A stretch of 64,000 bases of DNA from Dehalococcoidia bacterium (lineage in GTDB: Bacteria > Chloroflexota > Dehalococcoidia > Lucifugimonadales > GCA-2712585). This document shows positions 13,130 to 60,921 of the stretch, in pieces. Position 1 is the first letter of the stretch. The number at the start of each line of letters is the position of its first letter. The translations under genes were made by a program, and so were the position numbers. The notes under the pieces were generated by a model that saw only the letters and a list, made by a program, of their open reading frames with translations, ran no database searches and had not been told where the DNA came from. The stretch spans positions 1,385,862 through 1,449,861 of the forward strand of contig CBDBNU010000003.1 of the NCBI GenBank assembly GCA_965207845.1. Reading direction: 5' to 3'.

Positions 13130-13474
13130 AACCGTCTCTTTGAATTCAACTCTCCACGTAGTTGGGAGTCCCGTCCGGACCCCTTCGAGGGGGTAAGGAG
13201 TCAGATACCGGAATGGTTGCAGAAGCAGCCCGATGGCGGAATCTCTGAATTGATGAATCAGATGATCAAGCGATACCCGGAGCGTTACATCAGGTGTCAG
13301 CTTCGCTCCTTATAGCTCCGGGTAAGGCCGTGTCACAGTGTAATGGCCAACAAACTCGTGTATGCTTCGACTGAAAAGAGTAAGATCGATGAGGAACGAC
13401 TGGGTAGAATCAGACCTGTGGGCGTCATTTGGAATCCACGAAACTTCGGTGACATCCTCCGGTGAGGCAACGGC
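13130..13474 (+). pseudogene. 3' remnant of the rve-type IS (same family as 21976-24980), including its terminal repeat
   Basis: Translates to SWESRPDPFEGV..EWLQKQPDGGISELMNQMIKRYPERYIRCQLRSL*..ANKLVYASTEKS, parallel to the C-terminus of the 23368-23562 ORF. Ends with CTTCGGTGACATCCTCCGGTGAGGCAAC, the uninterrupted version of the terminal repeat that IS110 splits at 21995/23302. The 5' limit is approximate. Confidence 0.6.
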
Positions 13475-13500
13475 CCAGCAAGAATTATTGTCGCTGTTCA
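13475..13500 (-). repeat. IS21 left-end copy (inverted orientation), abutting the rve-IS remnant
   Basis: CCAGCAAGAATTATTGTCGCTGTTCA matches the reverse complement of the IS21 left end (58180-58205) at 24/26 positions. Confidence 0.6.
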
Positions 13501-13532
13501 GCCTGTCGACGATGCGTCCGCTCTCGGCCTCG

Positions 13533-21284: not shown

Positions 21285-22003
21285 GTATCTCGCCTCGTCG
21301 TGCCTCCTCCGCCTTGCCCACGCCTAGCCATCCGTAGTATGAACTCCGGGCCAGGGACGGGAGGTCAATCCCCATGGCGCGCAGGATCGATCCGGATCTG
21401 GGGATTCCCGGCATGGCCGCGCGCCAGGGCCGCCACCAGCGTTTCGTTTGCTGTGCTGCGGGCATCTGGTCGACTGCACCGAGACCGTCCTCGGCCAATG
21501 GAGGGATCTCCCTTTTGACTTTGTGAAGCGTTTTCTCCGAGCGTCCGCAACGTACCGCCTCCGAAGAGCCGCTGCCGAGAGGCAAAAGCACTTCCTGCCA
21601 GGGGACCATAGGACTCCAACGAAGGGTGCCCATAGCACCCGCCCAAGGCGAGGCCCCCCTGTGGTGGTTAAAAAGACGGACAATTGGGGCCACAATAACA
21701 CGCTGTCATTCGCACTGCGAACCCACACGAAGAGCCCGCTCCAAAGGCCCTGTCAACGATGTGACGGACGGCTCTTGTTTGCCCCTCGCAGCTGTCATTG
21801 CTGTCGCCGCTCAGGATAAATGTCAGTGAAAGTGACCAGCATAAATGTCACCAACTTGGTCTCTGAACATAACAGATCACGAATCATTCGATCTGGTTTG
21901 ATGGCCGGTTATGGGCGGGCTCTTGGCGTTCATGTACTTCTTCGCAGTGTGAACATCGACAATCATTCTTGCCGGCCTGTTGCCTCACCAAGAATTGATG
22001 CTC

Positions 22004-23089
22004 CTATAGATTGCAAGCGGCTTCTTTGAGGTCCTGGGCAGGGATCCGGATAGCCGAGTAGACCTCTCGGGCAACATAGCGTTTGAGACAACGGATGACA
22101 TCACGTTTGCTCATTCCCTCAGCGGTTCTACGTTGCATGTAAGCCCGGTTCCTCGGGTCGAAGCGTAGCCTGACGATGACTATGCGATAGAGCGCTGCAT
22201 TAGCCTGGCGGTCGCCACCTCGGTTCAGTCGATGCCTGTTCGTCTTGCCGGAAGAAGCCGGTATCGGTTTTACACCGCACAGCGATGCGAAGGCAGCCTC
22301 GGAATGGAGGCGATCAGGGTTGCTGCCCGCGGTTTTCAGAAGGGTTGCAGCGGTGGTCGGTCCCACACCAAAGGCGTCTACCAGGGACGGTGCAACTGAC
22401 TGGGTGAGTCGTACGATTTCAGAGTCCAGATCTCGCACTTCGTCACTGAGTTGACGGTAGCGGCGGGCAAGTGAACGAAGTGCGTACTTGGCGGCCATCT
22501 TCGGATTGTCGAGGCTAGAGAGGCGGAAGTCTCTGCACTGCTTGGCGAGTATGCTGGTGGTAAGGCCATCGAGCATGTCGCGAAGCTCGGCAGGCGCTGT
22601 CACGACCAGCGCCTTCATCTGATTGGCGGCCTGGGTGCGAGTCTTGACGGCAGAGTCTCTTGCGCTCTTGAGCATGCGGATCATCTCGACTTCGCCCTCG
22701 CCGGTCTTCGGAGTGGCATCGGCTACGCCGGCAAGCACCGCGCGCGCTGCCATCTCAGCATCTGTGGGATCGCTCTTCCCTTTGCGATAGCGGACCGACC
22801 TATCCGGCCTGTTGACCTCAATGACCTTATAGCCCTGACTAGCCATGAAGCGAGCGACTCCGGCTCCGTACGAACCTGTGCCCTCGATCCCGAACGCGCG
22901 GACCTCTCCCAACCTGCATGACCATCGTTCGAGCTCCTCGTATCCGCAGGTGTTTGTAGCCACGCTCTTCTCGCCGAGTCGGACACCTCGATCTTCAATG
23001 GCTACCGCCACATGCTGATCTCTGTGTGTGTCTATCCCTATCACCACCCCAGCTGCGCGATGACTCTGGTAACTTGCGATTCCTTTCAT
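22004..23089 (-). CDS. IS110-family DEDD transposase/recombinase
   Basis: VVIGIDTHRDQHV, FGIEGTGSYGAG, and a C-terminal Transposase_20-like region (LCGVKPIPASSGKTNRHRLNRGGDRQANAALY). ATG 23089 (MKGIAS) has AGGAGG upstream. The ORF track begins at 23107. Confidence 0.9.
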   Translation of the reverse strand: MKGIASYQSHRAAGVVIGIDTHRDQHVAVAIEDRGVRLGEKSVATNTCGYEELERWSCRLGEVRAFGIEGTGSYGAGVARFMASQGYKVIEVNRPDRSVRYRKGKSDPTDAEMAARAVLAGVADATPKTGEGEVEMIRMLKSARDSAVKTRTQAANQMKALVVTAPAELRDMLDGLTTSILAKQCRDFRLSSLDNPKMAAKYALRSLARRYRQLSDEVRDLDSEIVRLTQSVAPSLVDAFGVGPTTAATLLKTAGSNPDRLHSEAAFASLCGVKPIPASSGKTNRHRLNRGGDRQANAALYRIVIVRLRFDPRNRAYMQRRTAEGMSKRDVIRCLKRYVAREVYSAIRIPAQDLKEAACNL

Positions 23090-23301
23090 CTCTGCCTCCT
23101 GCACCATCCCGTATGGGCCAGGTGAGCGGACATAACTGCGAAGAGGCTCTGAACCAGGCTCCTATCAGGTCACTGCTCGCCCAAGCCGTTGGCTATTTAT
23201 GGCCAAGTCGGGAACGGATCGACAGATCAATTCGGGGACACTTGCGTCAATTACCGAATGGGTCAGATCCGATCCCGGATGGCCCATCAAGTATCATCGC
23301 A
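23090..23301 (-). ncRNA. candidate IS110 bridge RNA (5' non-coding end of the element)
   Basis: 212-nt non-coding left end upstream of the recombinase. It contains 8-9-nt strings matching the flanking target (TTACCGAA at 23251-23258 and 23303-23310). It also matches the element ends (GCTCCTAT at 23158-23165 and 22000-22007; TAACTGCGA at 23133-23141 is the reverse complement of 23297-23305). Confidence 0.45.
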
Positions 23302-23367
23302 GTTACCGAAGAATTTTCAGCTTTGATTGTCGCCCTCAGGTCCGATGACACTCTAGTCATCCTCTAC

Positions 23368-24866
23368 CTATAGACTCTGTTCTGCTGAAGCATACACCAA
23401 CTGTCTGGCTACGACCCGTCGCCACTGACGGACTCTGCGATGTAGGGTCCGCAGTTGACGTCTGCTATACCGGTCTGGGTAGCGGCGCATCAACCGTTCA
23501 AGAAGAGCCGAAGCCGTATTGTCCGGATGCTTCTGAAGCCATTTCAGGATTTCACACCACACTCCCTAGAATGGATCCCGACGAGAATGCCAGGTGCGTG
23601 GAGCACTGCGACCGTCTCCTTGAAGAGTGAGTAGGACTCACTTCTCCCTCTCGCCACAGCTCAGGCAGCCTGGAAAGGAAGTGTTCCGGACTTTCACTGC
23701 TTGGCGCACTCGCCGAATCATCGGCATCTAAAGCGGAAAGCCCCGATTGAGCCTCACGTATCGTATGCAGCAGAGATATCGGATCCAGTCTCGCCCGACT
23801 GCTCTCCAGTCCGCACTTTACCTTCTCGCTCACGTCATCTCTCTCCAGCAAGCGGTCGCACGGCGTGGCCGGTTTCCTGTACCGCTTCTTTACGCTGCCT
23901 CCATCCCTACTCCGCTCCAGCAGCTGGAACGGAGGCTGAAAGTGGTTCACATACAGACGTATCGCTCCGTAGAGGTGAGGTGAGTATCTGACCGGCCATG
24001 GGGCCCGAATATCGCTCGTGTCCCACAAAGCGGAGGATCACCGATCCGTTCTTCTGCTCAATCCAAGCCTGGTCGTTCTTGCGGAAAGCCCGTGAAAGCG
24101 TGAACTCGATACCCTTTTCGGCGCAGTACCCAAACAGGGTCTTGTTGATGAATACACTGTCGTTGTCCGAGTCTATTCCGCGGACTGAAACAGGGAAACC
24201 CCGGGCGATGGCTTCAAGCCCTTCTACCACCATGGACTGCTCGCGCGCCAACATCGGAATCGCCTCCGTCCATCCAGAGCACACGTCGGTCACCACCAGG
24301 GAGTTGATGAACGATCCAGTGACCGTACCGCCGCAGTGCACCACCAAGTCTATCTCAAGGTATCCGGGCTCGGTATCCTTCCAGTCCATGAAGGTGCGGA
24401 CTGGAATCTGGCTTCCCATCTTCCTCAACCTTCTACGCTTCCTGCGACTTCCGGCCTTCTCCCTCACAGGTCTCAGTAGACGGTCTATCGTGGCTGCGCT
24501 TGCCGTGAGAAGACGCTCGCGTACGTCAGGGGCGAGATCGAGATGTCCGTGCCTCTTCAGCGAGTCCACCATACTTGGCAGAGCCGCCTTGAGCCTCTTG
24601 CCGCATATCCTATCCGACGCCTCTCACACCACGATCAACGCTTGTCTTACGACCTCGTCATAGATGCGCTGGCCTTTGGGAACGGTCCGCTCTCTTATCT
24701 GATCACACTAACCGAGTAGCCTGACGGCGTGCTTCCTGTGACAGCCAGCAATAGCCACAAACTCATCGAGCATCCGGCTCTTGTCCTTCTTGGACGCCTC
24801 TCTGTACCGACTGCGAATAGCGCCAAGCACCTCTTTCCTCGTCACTGCGCTGATGTCTGCGACCAT
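23368..24866 (-). pseudogene. rve-family transposase, broken by frameshifts/stops into at least 4 ORF pieces
   Basis: Pieces at 24708-24893, 23907-24572, 23552-24028 and 23368-23562. The integrase core is EIDLVVHCGG...VTDVCSGWTEA...IDSDNDSVFIN...QAWIEQKNG. The probable start is ATG 24866 with a GGAGG RBS. Confidence 0.8.
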
Positions 24867-24880
24867 GTCATGCCTCCTAG

Positions 24881-24976
24881 TTTTGGGTAACACCTAATGT
24901 GAGGCAATGGCCTGTTTTGGGTAACATCTTCCGTGAGGCAATAGCTCGACTTCGGTAACAAAAACCTTAAGGCAAC
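24881..24976. repeat. three tandem subterminal transposase-binding-type repeats of the rve-IS
   Basis: TTTTGGGTAACACCTAATGTGAGGCAAT (24881-24908), TTTTGGGTAACATCTTCCGTGAGGCAAT (24914-24941) and TTCGGTAACAAAAACCTTAAGGCAAC (24951-24976). Confidence 0.6.
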
Positions 24977-25693
24977 GCGGCGGCAAAAATGATTGTCGCA
25001 CAACCGGCAAGAATACTTGACGCCAATCAGGGGGAAGTGAAATAACAGGAAGCACTAGGCTTGCGCGTGATAATCTCCTGTTTATTCAGCAAGATTGCTG
25101 ATTCTCTCGAAAAACCCTTGTCGACTTTCGTAGAGAATGTACCAGTCTAAGTGATTTGTGCTTCAGGAACTGCCTTTGGAAATCTGGATATCTACAAGTC
25201 AAAGGGAAATCTCCAAATTGAAAGTTCGCAATACAGTACATTTCGGCCCACCTGACTGGACAAAATCGAGAACCTTTTCGTTCACTTTCCTCCTACGGCA
25301 TTAGTTAGAATCTCAGCCTGCTTGTTTGGACGAGAATCCGTGTCCGGATATCAACAGGGCAGAACTCAGGCGGCTCCCAGGTACAAGAGAGATCCGTTCC
25401 TTCAAGGATCATAGGCCTTGTAGGCGGTCACATGTTGACAACAAATCCCAATTCTTCACATGAGGATTCCACTAGAGGTTCCTTTTCTTCACCCTCCCAA
25501 GAAGATGTCGCTCCACTCTCACTAGGTTCTGGCAAGTCTATTAGCTAGTTGTGGCTCCCGCAGGGAACTCGATGAGTCTCGAAACTAACGTCGAAGTTGG
25601 CAATAAGAATGGGCAGGTTCATTAGAGGAGTGTCACTTGGCCCCTTGTTTGATTCCTCTAAGCTACCTCCAGTGGCAATGACAGCACAACAGA

Positions 25694-57958: not shown

Positions 57959-58217
57959 TCTTACCCTTTCCCCCTTTTTGCCTGCATGAAGTATGATATT
58001 GTCTTACTATATATCATCGAATGTTCAGGCCTCAACCCTCGTCCGCCCGAGTCCGACCTGTGGGCGTTCGCCACCGACGCCCTTGCAGCCCCATCTGGCG
58101 CTCAATGACGGAGGAGTGCCGTTCGGGTGCCTACGCCACCACCCTGGTCCAGCTTCTCCTCCCACAGGATGGGCGGGGGTGAACAGCGACAATCATTCTT
58201 GCCGGTTGAAAGATGGG

Positions 58218-59732
58218 ATGATCTGGTACCGAGGAGGTGCCGGATTGGTCACAGATCAACAGGTAGTATTACTGAGGCAGAAGTTGATGGAAGGCAAGAC
58301 ACAGCAGGCAGCGGCGGCGATGGCCGCCATGAGCGAGAGATCAGCAAGGAAGTGGCAGCGAGGAGAGCTGCCGTCGGAAAAGAAGAAGGGCAGAGAGAGG
58401 TGGAGAAACAGGCCGGACCCGTTCGAGGGTGTATGGCAGGGTGAGGTGGGCCCCCTACTTCAATCGGACCCTGACGGTGAACTCAGTGCGACAACCATCC
58501 TGGAGTGGTTGTCAGAGAGGCATCCGGGCAGGTTCAGCAGGTCCCAGCTGCGGACATTGCAGCGTCGGCTCCGCGATTACAGGGCCCTTCACGGGCCGGA
58601 CCGGGAGGTGTACTTCCAACAGAACCATCCACCAGATCGTGAGGCGCAGGTGGACTTCACCCACTGTGGGGAGTTGGGGGTGACCATAAGTGGAGAGCCG
58701 TTCAGGCATCTGCTGTTCCACCTGGTGCTGAGTCACTCGGGCTGGCGGTATGCGGAGATATGCTTCGGAGAGACGTTTGCGGCGTTGGTGAAAGGACTGC
58801 AGGGAGCGTTGTGGGAGCTGGGAGGAGTACCCAGGGTGGTGCGTACGGACAACCTGTCAGCTGCCACCCACGAGTTGAAGAACAGCCGGGGCCGAGCCAT
58901 GAACGCCAACTACGAGGCGATTCTTGCCCACTATGGAGTGGAGCACACCAGGACCAACCGGCGTTCATCCCACGAGAACGGAGTGGTGGAACAGGGACAT
59001 CGACGTCTGAAGAACGCCATAGCCCAGGCGCTCATCCTCAGGGGAAGCCGAGACTTCGAATCTGAGGAAGAGTACAGGAAGTTCGTCAGAGGAGTCGTAG
59101 ACCGGTGCAACCGGCTGGTGAGACCGAAGCTGGAGATAGAGCGACGCCATCTGAGGCCGCTTCCGCTGGCGCCAGTACCGGAATACGTCAACTATCGCCT
59201 GAGGGTGCGCAAGTGGAGCACGATCAGGGTGGTGAACCGGACATACTCGGTTCCCTCGAGACTCATCGGTGTGGTTGTTGACGTCCGGCTGTATTCAGAC
59301 CGGATAGAGGTGTACTACAAGGACCACCTCGTGGAGAGCATGGAGCGGTTGCATGGCACGGGGGAGGCGCAGATCAACTACCGTCACATCATCGGATCGC
59401 TGGTGCGCAAGCCCGGTGCCTTCACCCGATACCGTTTCAGGAAGCAGATGTTTCCCACACACACCTTCAGGCTGGCCTATGACACGCTGCGTGTATGGAG
59501 GGGCGAACGTGCCGACGTGGAGTACGTTCGCATACTGCACCTGGCCGCGACAACTATGGAGATTGAGGTGGACAGGGCCCTCGGGCAACTGCTTGAGTCG
59601 GGGCTGAGATTCGACTATGCCATGGTGCGCGAGCTGGTGGCGCCCGCACCGCCCCCGGTACCGGAGCTGAAGCTGCCGGGAAAGGTGGATCTCGGTGTGT
59701 ACGACCGGCTGCTGGTGGGGGGTGCACGATGA
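58218..59732 (+). CDS. istA: IS21 transposase IstA
   Basis: HTH + DDE core (QVDFTH...VRTDNLSAA...HENGVVEQ). ATG 58218 lies inside the IS. The ORF track start at 57993 crosses the IS boundary. Confidence 0.85.
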   Translation: MIWYRGGAGLVTDQQVVLLRQKLMEGKTQQAAAAMAAMSERSARKWQRGELPSEKKKGRERWRNRPDPFEGVWQGEVGPLLQSDPDGELSATTILEWLSERHPGRFSRSQLRTLQRRLRDYRALHGPDREVYFQQNHPPDREAQVDFTHCGELGVTISGEPFRHLLFHLVLSHSGWRYAEICFGETFAALVKGLQGALWELGGVPRVVRTDNLSAATHELKNSRGRAMNANYEAILAHYGVEHTRTNRRSSHENGVVEQGHRRLKNAIAQALILRGSRDFESEEEYRKFVRGVVDRCNRLVRPKLEIERRHLRPLPLAPVPEYVNYRLRVRKWSTIRVVNRTYSVPSRLIGVVVDVRLYSDRIEVYYKDHLVESMERLHGTGEAQINYRHIIGSLVRKPGAFTRYRFRKQMFPTHTFRLAYDTLRVWRGERADVEYVRILHLAATTMEIEVDRALGQLLESGLRFDYAMVRELVAPAPPPVPELKLPGKVDLGVYDRLLVGGAR

Positions 59733-60544
59733 TGGTGAACACTCACTTGCCCAGTGCAGTGGCGGAACGGATCAAGGAGCTGTGCAGGCAGTTCAAGCTG
59801 CCCACTCTAGCAACTGAGACGGTTGAAAGGTTCCGGGAGGCCGGACACGCGGACGCCCTCTCGACCCTGCTGGAGGTGATGGAGCAGGAGGCGGAGGACA
59901 GACGGATACGACGGGTGAACCGTCTGAGGAGGGTGTCGAAGCTGCCGGCGGGTAAGACCTGGGACACCTTCGAGCACGACAGGATCCCGGTCATGCTCAG
60001 ACAGCAGCTGGAGAGACTCGGTGAGGGCGACTTCGTGGGCCGGGGAGTCAACGTGCTCGCCTTCGGCATGCCCGGCACGGGCAAGACCCACGCCATGGGC
60101 GCCATAGGACACCGGTTGGTGGAGTCGGGGCGCTCTGTGCTCTTTGTCCCGGCCTACCGCCTGGTACAGGACATGCTCGCAGCCAAGCGGGACCTGGAGT
60201 TGCCACGGATTCTCAGAAAGTTGGATAACTTTGACCTGCTCATCATCGACGACCTGGGCTATCTGCCCCAGGGAGCCGAGGAGTCCGAGGTGCTCTTTAC
60301 CCTCATTGCAGAGCGCTACGAACGAAGATCGTTGGGGATTACGTCGAACCTCGTGTTCAGCCAGTGGGAGAAGGTGTTCGCCAATCCTATGGCCACCGCG
60401 GCCGCCATAGACAGGATCGTCCACCACTCCGTGATCCTCGAGTTCGATGTGCCCAGCTATAGAACCAATCAGGACCCGATCCTCCAAATGGAGAATAACT
60501 CAAACGGCAAAAATGATTGTCGCACAACCGGCAAGAATACTTGA
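59729..60544 (+). CDS. istB: IS21 helper ATPase IstB
   Basis: 271-aa ORF. FGMPGTGKTH (Walker A), LLIIDDLGY (Walker B). 4-nt overlap with istA. Confidence 0.9.
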   Translation: MMVNTHLPSAVAERIKELCRQFKLPTLATETVERFREAGHADALSTLLEVMEQEAEDRRIRRVNRLRRVSKLPAGKTWDTFEHDRIPVMLRQQLERLGEGDFVGRGVNVLAFGMPGTGKTHAMGAIGHRLVESGRSVLFVPAYRLVQDMLAAKRDLELPRILRKLDNFDLLIIDDLGYLPQGAEESEVLFTLIAERYERRSLGITSNLVFSQWEKVFANPMATAAAIDRIVHHSVILEFDVPSYRTNQDPILQMENNSNGKNDCRTTGKNT

Positions 60545-60921
60545 CGCCAATCAGGGGGATAGGGGCATGCCTCCCGTACCCGTCGAACCGCCGCCCATCC
60601 TTCCGGATGGATAGGTACGCCAGGGATGGGGGAGGAGGAGGCATGCCCCCTGGGGGTACGTCGCCAATCATACCACCCATGGTGAGGGAGTCTGACATCT
60701 GCATGCCAATTGCCCTCCTTTCCACCGTGGCCCTCAAGGAGTCCGGTTCCTTCCAGTCGGTGGGGACTCCTCCTTTCCTCCTTCTTCATACAAAAGTATA
60801 TACCCACCGATGAAGGCTATGAGGATGCCTCCTATTAACACTAAGACTCCTTCCCTTCGTTTAGGGGGAAATTCTCCGAACTATGTTCAGCACTTTCATT
60901 TGTTACTACTTTTCGTTTTGG

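What the first reader, a model, noticed from the sequence alone, without database searches (positions are those of the whole stretch)
23090..23301. Candidate IS110 bridge RNA whose loops match the observed target and the element's own ends
IS110-family recombinases are known (IS621 work published in 2024) to use a non-coding RNA from the element's 5' end. That RNA has a target-binding loop followed by a donor-binding loop. In transposase-sense orientation, the 212-nt leader contains three matches in 5'-to-3' order. (a) AUUCGGUAAU, whose core TTCGGTAA is identical to the 8 nt of flank abutting the left end (plus-strand TTACCGAA at 23251-58 and 23303-10). (b) AUAGGAGC, identical to 8 nt at the right end (plus-strand GCTCCTAT at 23158-65 and 22000-07). 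(c) UCGCAGUUA, reverse-complementary to the left-end/flank junction (23133-41 versus 23297-305). The paralogous uninserted site (13444-13453) differs in the matched octamer by one base (TTCGGTGA). This would be a natively programmed bridge RNA that targets another transposon's terminal repeat.
Basis: partly seen in the sequence, partly recalled or inferred. Interest (0 to 1): 0.65.

Follow-up and report, generated by a model that had tools for sequence, protein, structure and literature searches.

The report
IS110 element with matched bridge RNA
The 212-nt leader of this IS110-family insertion sequence encodes a genuine IS621-type bridge RNA whose four guide segments match its own insertion site and its own ends, which makes it a clean but expected new example of a mechanism described in 2024.

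Summary

**The element.** It lies on the minus strand at window 21997-23302 (1305 bp plus one shared C). It encodes a DEDD/Ser recombinase that matches NCBIfam 'IS110 family RNA-guided transposase'. It aligns with IS621 with all five catalytic residues in place.

**The matches.** A fourth, GAAUUGAU against the right-end junction, completes the IS621 pattern:
- LTG: UUCGGUAA(U)
- RTG plus handshake: GAAUUG-AU
- LDG: AUAGGAGCCU
- RDG plus handshake: UCGCAG-UUA

These are the only matches of 7 nt or more between leader and junctions. All four together occurred in 0 of 5000 shuffles.

**Boundaries.** Empty-site contigs from related metagenomes place the guide-matched flanks directly against the crossover C.

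**Relatives.** In about ten distinct relatives with other targets, the guides and the handshake bases change together with the flanks. The stems are 91% paired, with 13 compensatory pairs, and all guides lie in internal loops. A covariance model built without the window hits it at E=5e-43.

**Target.** It is the terminal ~30-nt repeat unit of a decayed rve-type insertion sequence.

**Limits.** There is no RNA evidence. The window copy has a weakened junction promoter.

**Verdict.** New member of a known kind, moderate interest.

The parts
21997..23302 (-). IS110-group insertion sequence, 1305 bp plus one shared C (C = 23302 at the left junction and 21997 at the right junction, transposase sense)
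   Evidence: Empty-site contigs join 21996 to 23302 with 1 ambiguous letter (more). The ends ...|C|TGCGATG... and ...ATAGGAGCAT|C|... are conserved in about 40 related copies.
22004..23089 (-). Recombinase gene, 361 aa (DEDD RuvC-like domain plus Tnp domain)
   Evidence: PF01548 and PF02371. NF033542 'IS110 family RNA-guided transposase', 187 bits against a cutoff of 140. IS621 structure 8wt6, E=4.6e-10, with the D, E, D, D and S catalytic residues aligned. GGAGG lies 6 nt before the ATG at 23089.
23117..23288 (-). Bridge RNA gene: a target-binding stem-loop followed by a donor-binding stem-loop
   Evidence: Covariance model R1, built from six relatives without the window: 147 bits, E=4.8e-43, full length, the only strong hit in 64 kb. 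Structure 91.3% paired against 35-45% in slid controls, with 13 compensatory pairs.
23250..23258 (-). Left target guide (LTG), UUCGGUAA plus U at the C position, on the 5' side of the first internal loop
   Evidence: Identical to the flank TTCGGTAA (23310-23303 read on the minus strand). It covaries with the flank in relatives.
23226..23233 (-). Right target guide GAAUUG (23233-23228) plus handshake AU (23227-23226), on the 3' side of the first internal loop
   Evidence: Reverse complement of AT|C|AATTC at the right junction. It covaries in relatives: CAACTG, CATTTG, CCTTGC, CTTCTG, CACCAT.
23156..23165 (-). Left donor guide AUAGGAGCCU, on the 5' side of the second internal loop
   Evidence: Matches the right end ATAGGAGCAT (22007-21998) at 9 of 10 positions. 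It covaries in relatives: AUAGGAGAGU/ATAGGAGAAT, AUAGAAGCGU/ATAGAAGCAT, AUAGGAGCGU/ATAGGAGCGT.
23133..23141 (-). Right donor guide UCGCAG (23141-23136) plus handshake UUA (23135-23133), on the 3' side of the second internal loop
   Evidence: Reverse complement of TAA|C|TGCGA at the left junction. The handshake covaries with the last two flank bases: UU/AA, UA/TA, UC/GA.
23303..23310 (-). Left half of the target (TTCGGTAA), abutting the crossover C
21992..21996 (-). Right half of the target read by the RTG (AATTC after the C at 21997)
22011..22016 (-). -35-like hexamer TTGCAA in the right end. Relatives have TTGACA or TTGACG here.
   Evidence: In-silico circle junction: TTGACA, 17 nt, GATGAT scores 9-10 of 12 in 11 relatives and 8 of 12 in the window.
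23293..23298 (-). -10-like hexamer GATGAT in the left end, preceded by TG
   Evidence: No sigma-70-like site is found in the integrated element.
21976..24980 (-). Host element: a decayed rve-type insertion sequence. Its terminal ~30-nt unit (TTYGGTRAC-N7-9-TGAGGCAAY) is the IS110 target. Three tandem units lie at 24880-24980, and the opposite end unit is split by the IS110.
   Evidence: Repeat units. rve domain in the ORF fragment 23907-24572, with broken frames from 24868 down to about 23380.
13444..13474 (+). Uninserted paralogous unit (CTTCGGTGAC ATCCTCCG GTGAGGCAAC)

Best explanation
Window 21997-23302 (minus strand) is an IS110-group insertion sequence. Its 212-nt left-end leader encodes a bridge RNA of about 170 nt of the IS621 type.

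Inferred life cycle:
1. The element excises as a circle that joins ...ATAGGAGCAT-C-TGCGATG...
2. This junction brings a -35 box in the right end 17 bp from a TG-extended -10 in the left end. The resulting promoter drives the bridge RNA and the recombinase.
3. The RNA folds into two stem-loops, each with an internal loop.
4. Loop 1 reads the target. [quoted passage not shown]
5. Loop 2 reads the donor. [quoted passage not shown]
6. After top-strand exchange, the handshake bases AU and UU(A) pair with the donor's AT and the target's (T)AA.
7. The DEDD/Ser recombinase exchanges strands at the single shared C and inserts the element.

The programmed target is the terminal repeat unit of an rve-type insertion sequence.

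Shown here: the boundaries, all four guide matches, their covariation with flanks and ends in relatives, the conserved structure, and the catalytic residues. Inferred: transcription, RNA-protein binding, and catalysis.
For: - Protein. Pfam, NCBIfam equivalog above its cutoff, and an IS621 structure alignment with D, E, D, D and S conserved.
- Boundaries. Empty-site contigs in three independent metagenome runs give LT-C-RT with one ambiguous base. The loop length of an interrupted ABC permease and the spacing of the target repeat units agree.
- Guides. There are four exact matches of 8-9 nt, in IS621 order and strand sense. They are the only matches of 7 nt or more, and all four together arose in 0 of 5000 shuffles.
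- LTG covariation: TTCGGTAA, CGGATA, TTGGTAA, TTCCACAA, GAATGGGA versus GAGTGGGA at homologous sites, CGCGAAACTAA, GCTGCACAA, CGCGTC.AA.
- RTG covariation: CAATTC, CATCT, CAACTG, CATTTG, CACCAT, CCTTGC, CTTCTG.
- Cognate versus non-cognate identity: 7.6 versus 4.2 of 9 for the LTG, and 5.6 versus 3.1 of 6 for the RTG.
- The LDG and the handshake bases covary too.
- Structure. 91.3% of cells are paired, 13 pairs show compensatory change, and the guides lie in loops.
- A covariance model built without the window hits it at E=4.8e-43.
- The junction promoter is conserved in 11 relatives.
- Reference rules come from PMC11208160 and PMC11208158.
Against: - There is no RNA evidence. No RNA-seq run holds the sequence.
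- Rfam 15 gives no hit.
- In the window copy the -35 is weakened to TTGCAA (8 of 12).
- The LTG has U where relatives have C, which is a U-G wobble.
- The single-sequence MFE pairs part of the LTG with the RTG flank.
- Donor and target share only one C, not a CT dinucleotide as in IS621.
Confidence: 0.9

Rival explanations
1. The RNA family is real, but this copy is a stranded relic. It was once correctly inserted by its bridge RNA and is now unable to move, because of a weakened junction promoter, a changed core base in the LTG, and partial self-pairing of the guides.
For: - The -35 reads TTGCAA against TTGACA or TTGACG in 10 of 11 relatives. The same TGA>TGC change lengthens the ORF by 3 codons.
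- The LTG has U at the C position, where X3 and X4 relatives have C.
- AUUCGG/CCGAAU pair in the MFE.
- The depth suggests a single copy.
Against: - The recombinase ORF is intact, with the catalytic residues present.
- All stems of the model are intact.
- U-G is a tolerated wobble.
- The guides still match the insertion site perfectly.
Confidence: 0.25
2. The internal matches are DNA-level subterminal repeats recognised by the protein, as proposed for IS1111 STIRs. They are not RNA guides.
For: Match (c) is an inverted repeat of the left tip in the DNA. RNAalifold pairs CUGCGA with UCGCAG.
Against: - Guide segments covary with flanking host DNA that is not part of the element.
- They sit in loops of a structure kept by compensatory changes.
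- Experimental precedent exists for RNA (PMC11208160, PMC11187229).
Confidence: 0.04
3. The matches are chance matches in an ordinary 5' UTR.
For: Each single 8-mer match has about a 3.4% chance.
Against: All four together arose in 0 of 5000 shuffles, in the correct order and sense. They covary across about ten relatives.
Confidence: 0.01

Closest known systems
IS621 (E. coli) bridge recombinase and bridge RNA (Durrant et al. 2024, PMC11208160; Hiraizumi et al. 2024, PMC11208158)
   Same: - DEDD plus Ser recombinase.
- The RNA is encoded in the left end, upstream of the gene.
- Two stem-loops with internal loops. The 5' sides pair with the bottom strand over 8-10 nt. The 3' sides pair with the top strand over 6 nt.
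- Two-base handshake guides. The AU/AT pair of the donor is even identical.
- A promoter split across the RE-LE junction.
   Different: - The protein is only distantly related (E=4.6e-10).
- There is no separate 5' stem-loop before the target loop.
- Donor and target share a single C rather than CT. The base after the C is T at every left junction. At the right junction it is the target's own base (A, C or T), matched by the RTG.
- The LDG does not cover the C.
[quoted passage not shown]
   Same: An IS110-family element whose specific target is the terminal repeat of another transposon.
   Different: Those are IS1111-group elements, with the RNA downstream of the gene and long subterminal inverted repeats. 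Here the RNA is upstream, the right end extends only 6 nt past the stop codon, and the host element is an rve-type insertion sequence in Chloroflexota-like genomes.
IS110-type seekRNA elements (Siddiquee et al. 2024, PMC11187229) and the large sets of bridge-RNA variants mapped by covariance models (bioRxiv 10.64898/2026.10.21.760802)
   Same: Natural reprogramming among close relatives, a core of variable length c, and diverse RNA structures that covary with target and donor.
   Different: This particular clade and its target were not looked up in those data sets. I could not check whether it is included.

Membership tests
IS110 family, IS110 group (bridge-RNA-guided recombinases) | Recombinase with an N-terminal DEDD RuvC-like domain and a C-terminal Tnp domain carrying the catalytic Ser | tested here: met
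   PF01548 and PF02371. NF033542 at 187 bits, above the cutoff of 140. Aligned to IS621 with D, E, D, D and S conserved.
IS110 family, IS110 group (bridge-RNA-guided recombinases) | Long non-coding left end upstream of the gene, very short right end, no terminal inverted repeats, and no target duplication beyond the shared core | tested here: met
   The leader is 212 nt and the right end extends 6 nt past the stop codon. Empty sites show LT-C-RT with one shared base.
IS110 family, IS110 group (bridge-RNA-guided recombinases) | ncRNA with two stem-loops that each carry an internal loop | tested here: met
   91.3% paired, 13 compensatory pairs, slid controls 35-45%. Consensus fold.
IS110 family, IS110 group (bridge-RNA-guided recombinases) | The 5' side of loop 1 has the top-strand sequence of the left target (8-9 nt). 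The 3' side is complementary to the top strand of core plus right target (4-7 nt). | tested here: met
   UUCGGUAA(U) against TTCGGTAA-C, and GAAUUG against C-AATTC. Both covary in relatives.
IS110 family, IS110 group (bridge-RNA-guided recombinases) | The 5' side of loop 2 has the sequence of the right-end tip (left donor). The 3' side is complementary to core plus left-end tip (right donor). | tested here: met
   AUAGGAGCCU against ATAGGAGCAT (9 of 10), and UCGCAG against C-TGCGA.
IS110 family, IS110 group (bridge-RNA-guided recombinases) | Handshake guides: the two bases 3' of the RTG pair with the donor's last two bases, and the two bases 3' of the RDG pair with the target's last two bases | tested here: met
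   AU/AT, and UU(A)/(T)AA. They covary as UA/TA and UC/GA in relatives.
IS110 family, IS110 group (bridge-RNA-guided recombinases) | A promoter reconstituted across the RE-LE junction of the circle | tested here: inconclusive
   In silico, 9-10 of 12 with a 17-nt spacer in 11 relatives but 8 of 12 in the window. No circle reads or RNA data are available.
IS110 family, IS110 group (bridge-RNA-guided recombinases) | The RNA is expressed, binds the recombinase and is required for recombination | not testable with these tools
   No RNA run holds the sequence.
IS621 itself (CT-core elements) | A CT dinucleotide shared by donor and target and read by all four guides | tested here: not met
   Only a single C is shared. 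The donor reads AT-C-TGCGA and the targets read xA-C-(A/C/T)... The LDG stops before the C. This is a feature of IS621, not of the family.
IS1111 group | RNA in a long right end downstream of the gene, with 7-17-bp subterminal inverted repeats | tested here: not met
   The right end extends only 6 nt past the stop codon, and the RNA is upstream of the gene.
Rfam families | A hit to a curated RNA family | tested here: not met
   No relevant hit at E<=10. Rfam 15 appears to hold no bridge-RNA family, so this says little.

The most novel reading that the evidence does not exclude
In this clade the crossover needs only one shared base (C). The second 'core' position is free in the target and is read only by the RTG, so the CT requirement of IS621 would not apply.

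In addition, contigs in related metagenomes carry 52-nt solo left-end stubs that stop exactly at the LTG-coding segment. This suggests that the element's own LTG-coding DNA, which is a copy of the target's left half, can serve as a pseudo-junction in bridge-RNA-guided excision.
Probability: 0.25. Interest if true: 0.55.

Novelty: new member of a known kind. Interest (0 to 1): 0.33.

Why it matters
This is a natural, fully self-consistent example of a bridge RNA. The target, the donor, the empty site and a series of naturally reprogrammed relatives are all visible in sequence data from uncultured Chloroflexota-like bacteria. The guides and handshake bases track the flanks base for base, for example GAATGGGA against GAGTGGGA at homologous sites.

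It shows that the IS621 rules, including the handshake guides, hold in a distant branch of the family. It also points to a one-base crossover, which would be of practical interest for choosing targets. Biologically, it documents an insertion sequence that specialises in the terminal repeat of another insertion sequence.

None of this changes the known picture.

Tried and rejected
- Rfam scan of the region at E<=10: nothing relevant.
Copy number in the own genome and a whole-genome search were therefore not possible.
- blastn against plasmids: only distant hits to the recombinase gene.
- RNA-seq runs: none hold the leader.
- Boundary models rejected:
  - A CT dinucleotide core with the right end ...GCATCAA is 3 nt too short for the ABC-permease loop and for the repeat-unit spacing.
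  - A right end ...ATAGGAG with CATCAA as target is 3 nt too long.
  - An AT core is out of frame.
  - The empty-site joints settled the boundaries.
- A 2-nt DNA bulge in the LDG/LD pairing was considered. The ungapped register fits relatives at least as well.
- A middle hairpin (UUGGC/GCCAA) as an alternative to the basal stem is less supported, at 74% against 93% paired.
- A search of the held loci for solo left-end stubs found none.

Full report
**Observation**

The minus strand of window 22004-23089 encodes a 361-aa protein with PF01548 (DEDD_Tnp_IS110) and PF02371 (Transposase_20). It scores 187 bits against NCBIfam NF033542, 'IS110 family RNA-guided transposase', whose cutoff is 140. It aligns with the IS621 recombinase of PDB 8wt6 (E=4.6e-10). 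The residues that correspond to D11, E60, D102, D105 and S241 are conserved.

A GGAGG lies 6 nt upstream of the ATG at 23089, so the leader is 23090-23302. So is the paralogous uninserted unit at 13444.

**Boundaries**

Conservation alone could not fix the ends, because both the element tips and the targets are conserved. Three lines of evidence agree.

- Logan contigs of related metagenome runs contain empty sites. One joins 21996 to 23302 with one ambiguous letter. In transposase sense this reads CTTCGGTAA-C-AATTCTTGGTGAGG. Another reads TTCGGTGA-C-AATTCT... One search gives two further empty sites.
- A relative (L014) interrupts an ABC permease gene. Only a reconstruction of the form LT-C-RT gives the W-x3-AR loop length seen in DppC and OppC structures.
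- The same reconstruction restores the 7-9-nt spacer of the target repeat unit.

The element is therefore 21997-23301 or 21998-23302. In transposase sense it reads (C)TGCGATGATAC...CTATAGGAGCAT(C). About 40 related copies show the same pattern, flank|C|TGCGA... and ...ATAG(G/A)AG(C/A)(A/G)T|C|flank.

**Guides in the window**

Against the two junctions, the internal leader has exactly four matches of 7 nt or more:

| Segment | RNA | Window | Matches |
|---|---|---|---|
| LTG | UUCGGUAA | 23258-23251 | same sense as the left flank |
| RTG plus handshake | GAAUUGAU | 23233-23226 | reverse complement of AT\|C\|AATTC at the right junction |
| LDG | AUAGGAGC | 23165-23158 | same sense as the right end; extends to AUAGGAGCCU against ATAGGAGCAT |
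| RDG plus handshake | UCGCAGUUA | 23141-23133 | reverse complement of TAA\|C\|TGCGA at the left junction |

Each single match of 8 nt or more arises in about 3.4% of shuffles. All four together arose in 0 of 5000.

The order and strand sense are those published for IS621. [quoted passage not shown] Two further bases 3' of the RTG and RDG, the handshake guides, pair with positions 6-7 of the other DNA after strand exchange. In IS621 these are A81/U82 against donor A6/T7. Here the corresponding bases are AU against the donor's AT, and UU(A) against the target's (T)AA.

**Relatives**

The recombinase has thousands of homologues, many at 74-87% identity. I fetched about 40 loci and aligned the leaders. 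The guide segments change with the flanks:

| LTG / left flank | Loci |
|---|---|
| UUCGGUAAC / TTCGGTAA\|C | L023, L037 |
| GCGGAUAC / (T)CGGATA\|C | P0011 copies |
| AUUUGGUAAC / ATTGGTAA\|C | L032 |
| AUUCCACAAC / TTTCCACAA\|C | L025-31 |
| GAAUGGGAC / GAATGGGA\|C | L002, L004 |
| GAGUGGGAC / GAGTGGGA\|C | L010, at a site homologous to that of L002 |
| GCCGCGAAACUAAC / CCGCGAAACTAA\|C | L001 |
| GCUGCACAA / GCTGCACAA\|C | L006 group, 55% protein identity |
| ACGCGUCAAC / GCGCGTCGA\|C | second element in L005, |

- The RTG tracks the right flank: CAACTG, CATTTG, CACCAT, CCTTGC, CTTCTG.
- Cognate pairs share 7.6 of 9 (LTG) and 5.6 of 6 (RTG) positions. Non-cognate pairs share 4.2 and 3.1.
- The LDG follows changes in the right end: AUAGGAGAGU/ATAGGAGAAT, AUAGAAGCGU/ATAGAAGCAT, AUAGGAGCGU/ATAGGAGCGT.
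- The donor-loop handshake follows the last two target bases: UU/AA, UA/TA, UC/GA.

**Structure**

The single-sequence MFE pairs AUUCGG of the LTG with CCGAAU next to the RTG. This complementarity is peculiar to the window.

The comparative picture differs. RNAalifold keeps the outer stem of loop 1 and leaves the guide region open. I then scored a manual IS621-like model with these parts:
- a basal stem;
- a long stem around loop 1;
- a 3-bp inner hairpin;
- a stem around loop 2;
- a second 3-bp inner hairpin.

This model is 91.3% paired across 14 leaders, against 35-45% when partners are slid. It has 13 pairs with changes on both sides. An alternative middle hairpin is weaker. All four guides lie on the sides of the two internal loops.

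A covariance model built from six relatives at 72-78% protein identity, with the window left out, hits 23117-23288(-) over its full length at 147 bits, E=4.8e-43. This is the only strong hit in the window. Rfam 15 has no matching family.

**Promoter**

I joined the right end to the left end in silico. In 11 relatives this gives TTGAC(A/G), 17 nt, then GATGAT, GAGAAT or GATTGT, with TG before the -10. These score 9-10 of 12. This is the kind of junction promoter described for IS621 and for other family members.

The window copy has TTGCAA and scores 8 of 12. The same TGA>TGC change moves the stop codon three codons downstream. No sigma-70-like site exists in the integrated element. No RNA-seq data hold the sequence. 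Expression is therefore inferred, not shown.

**Target**

The split unit belongs to an rve-type insertion sequence at about 21976-24980.
- Its transposase gene runs from 24868 down to about 23380 on the minus strand and is broken into fragments. An rve domain lies in 23907-24572.
- The unit TTYGGTRAC-N7-9-TGAGGCAAY occurs three times in tandem at 24880-24980 and once at the other end. That single copy is the one hit by the IS110.
- Relatives L023/24, L032/33/35, L037 and L005 sit in the same kind of unit in other genomes, at either end of such elements.
- Other clade members sit in the end of an IS256-like element (L025-31) or in an IS21-like istA (L019-22, L038-40).

Targeting of transposon terminal repeats has a precedent in IS4321 and IS5075 of the IS1111 group.

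**Differences from IS621**

- Donor and target share only one C. The base after it is T at every left junction. At the right junction it is the target's own base (A, C or T), which the RTG matches.
- The LTG ends at the C and the LDG ends before it.
- A top-strand exchange immediately 3' of the C would give full complementarity before and after exchange, and would produce exactly the observed junctions. This is inference only.
- Recent surveys already allow cores of variable length, so I do not count this as a new kind.

**Verdict**

This is a new member of a known kind. The copy may be weakened.

Noticed in passing
window 23251-23309; Logan contigs of runs X3, X4, X5: Many contigs in related metagenomes hold only the first ~52 nt of the left end, at a summed depth of up to 386 against about 8-10 for the whole element. 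Most simply diverge after the LTG. Two continue directly into the right half of a target unit (...CCCATTCGGTAA|CTGGTGTTGAGGCAAC... and ...GGTAA|CTGCGATGAGACAACAGGCCGGCAA...). These look like solo left-end stubs, left when the LTG-coding DNA acted as a pseudo-left junction in excision.
   Followed up: partly
window 13444-13505, 21940-21999, 24948-25035, 60505-60559: Each end of the rve-type insertion sequence abuts the same IS21-end-like sequence, (C)GGCAA(G/A)AAT(G/T)ATTGTCG. The stretch 24981-25035 is identical to 60505-60559, which is the end of an intact IS21-type element (IstA 57993-59732, IstB 59729-60544). The result is a three-level nest: an IS110 inside an rve-IS inside IS21 ends. The rve-IS may itself be specific for IS21 ends.
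   Followed up: partly
L002:2581-2610: In this Dehalococcoidia MAG the right end of a relative is followed by CTGCGATAACC, a copy of the left-end tip, instead of a target matched by its RTG. It may be a remnant of a tandem or head-to-tail junction.
   Followed up: no
L021 versus L019, and L038-L040: Two variants of the same IS21-like target (GGATA-C-AACTG and GGATA-C-ATTTG) are occupied by two IS110 variants. Their RTGs (CAGUUG and CAAAUG) each fit one variant. In L021 the 'wrong' element, with two RTG mismatches, sits in the ATTTG variant. The L038-40 copies have an unrelated right flank.
   Followed up: no
L018:1-1200: A copy whose leader is replaced upstream of the donor loop (from ...GACTTGATAGGAGCC) by another, oppositely oriented IS110-family gene. 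This is either an insertion or recombination within the bridge RNA gene, or a chimeric contig.
   Followed up: no
window 24948-24980: An uninserted unit with a perfect left half (TTCGGTAAC) but a right half CAAAAA, which matches only 3 of 6 RTG positions. A relative (L005) is inserted at exactly this kind of unit (|C|AAAAACCTTGAGGCAAC).
   Followed up: no
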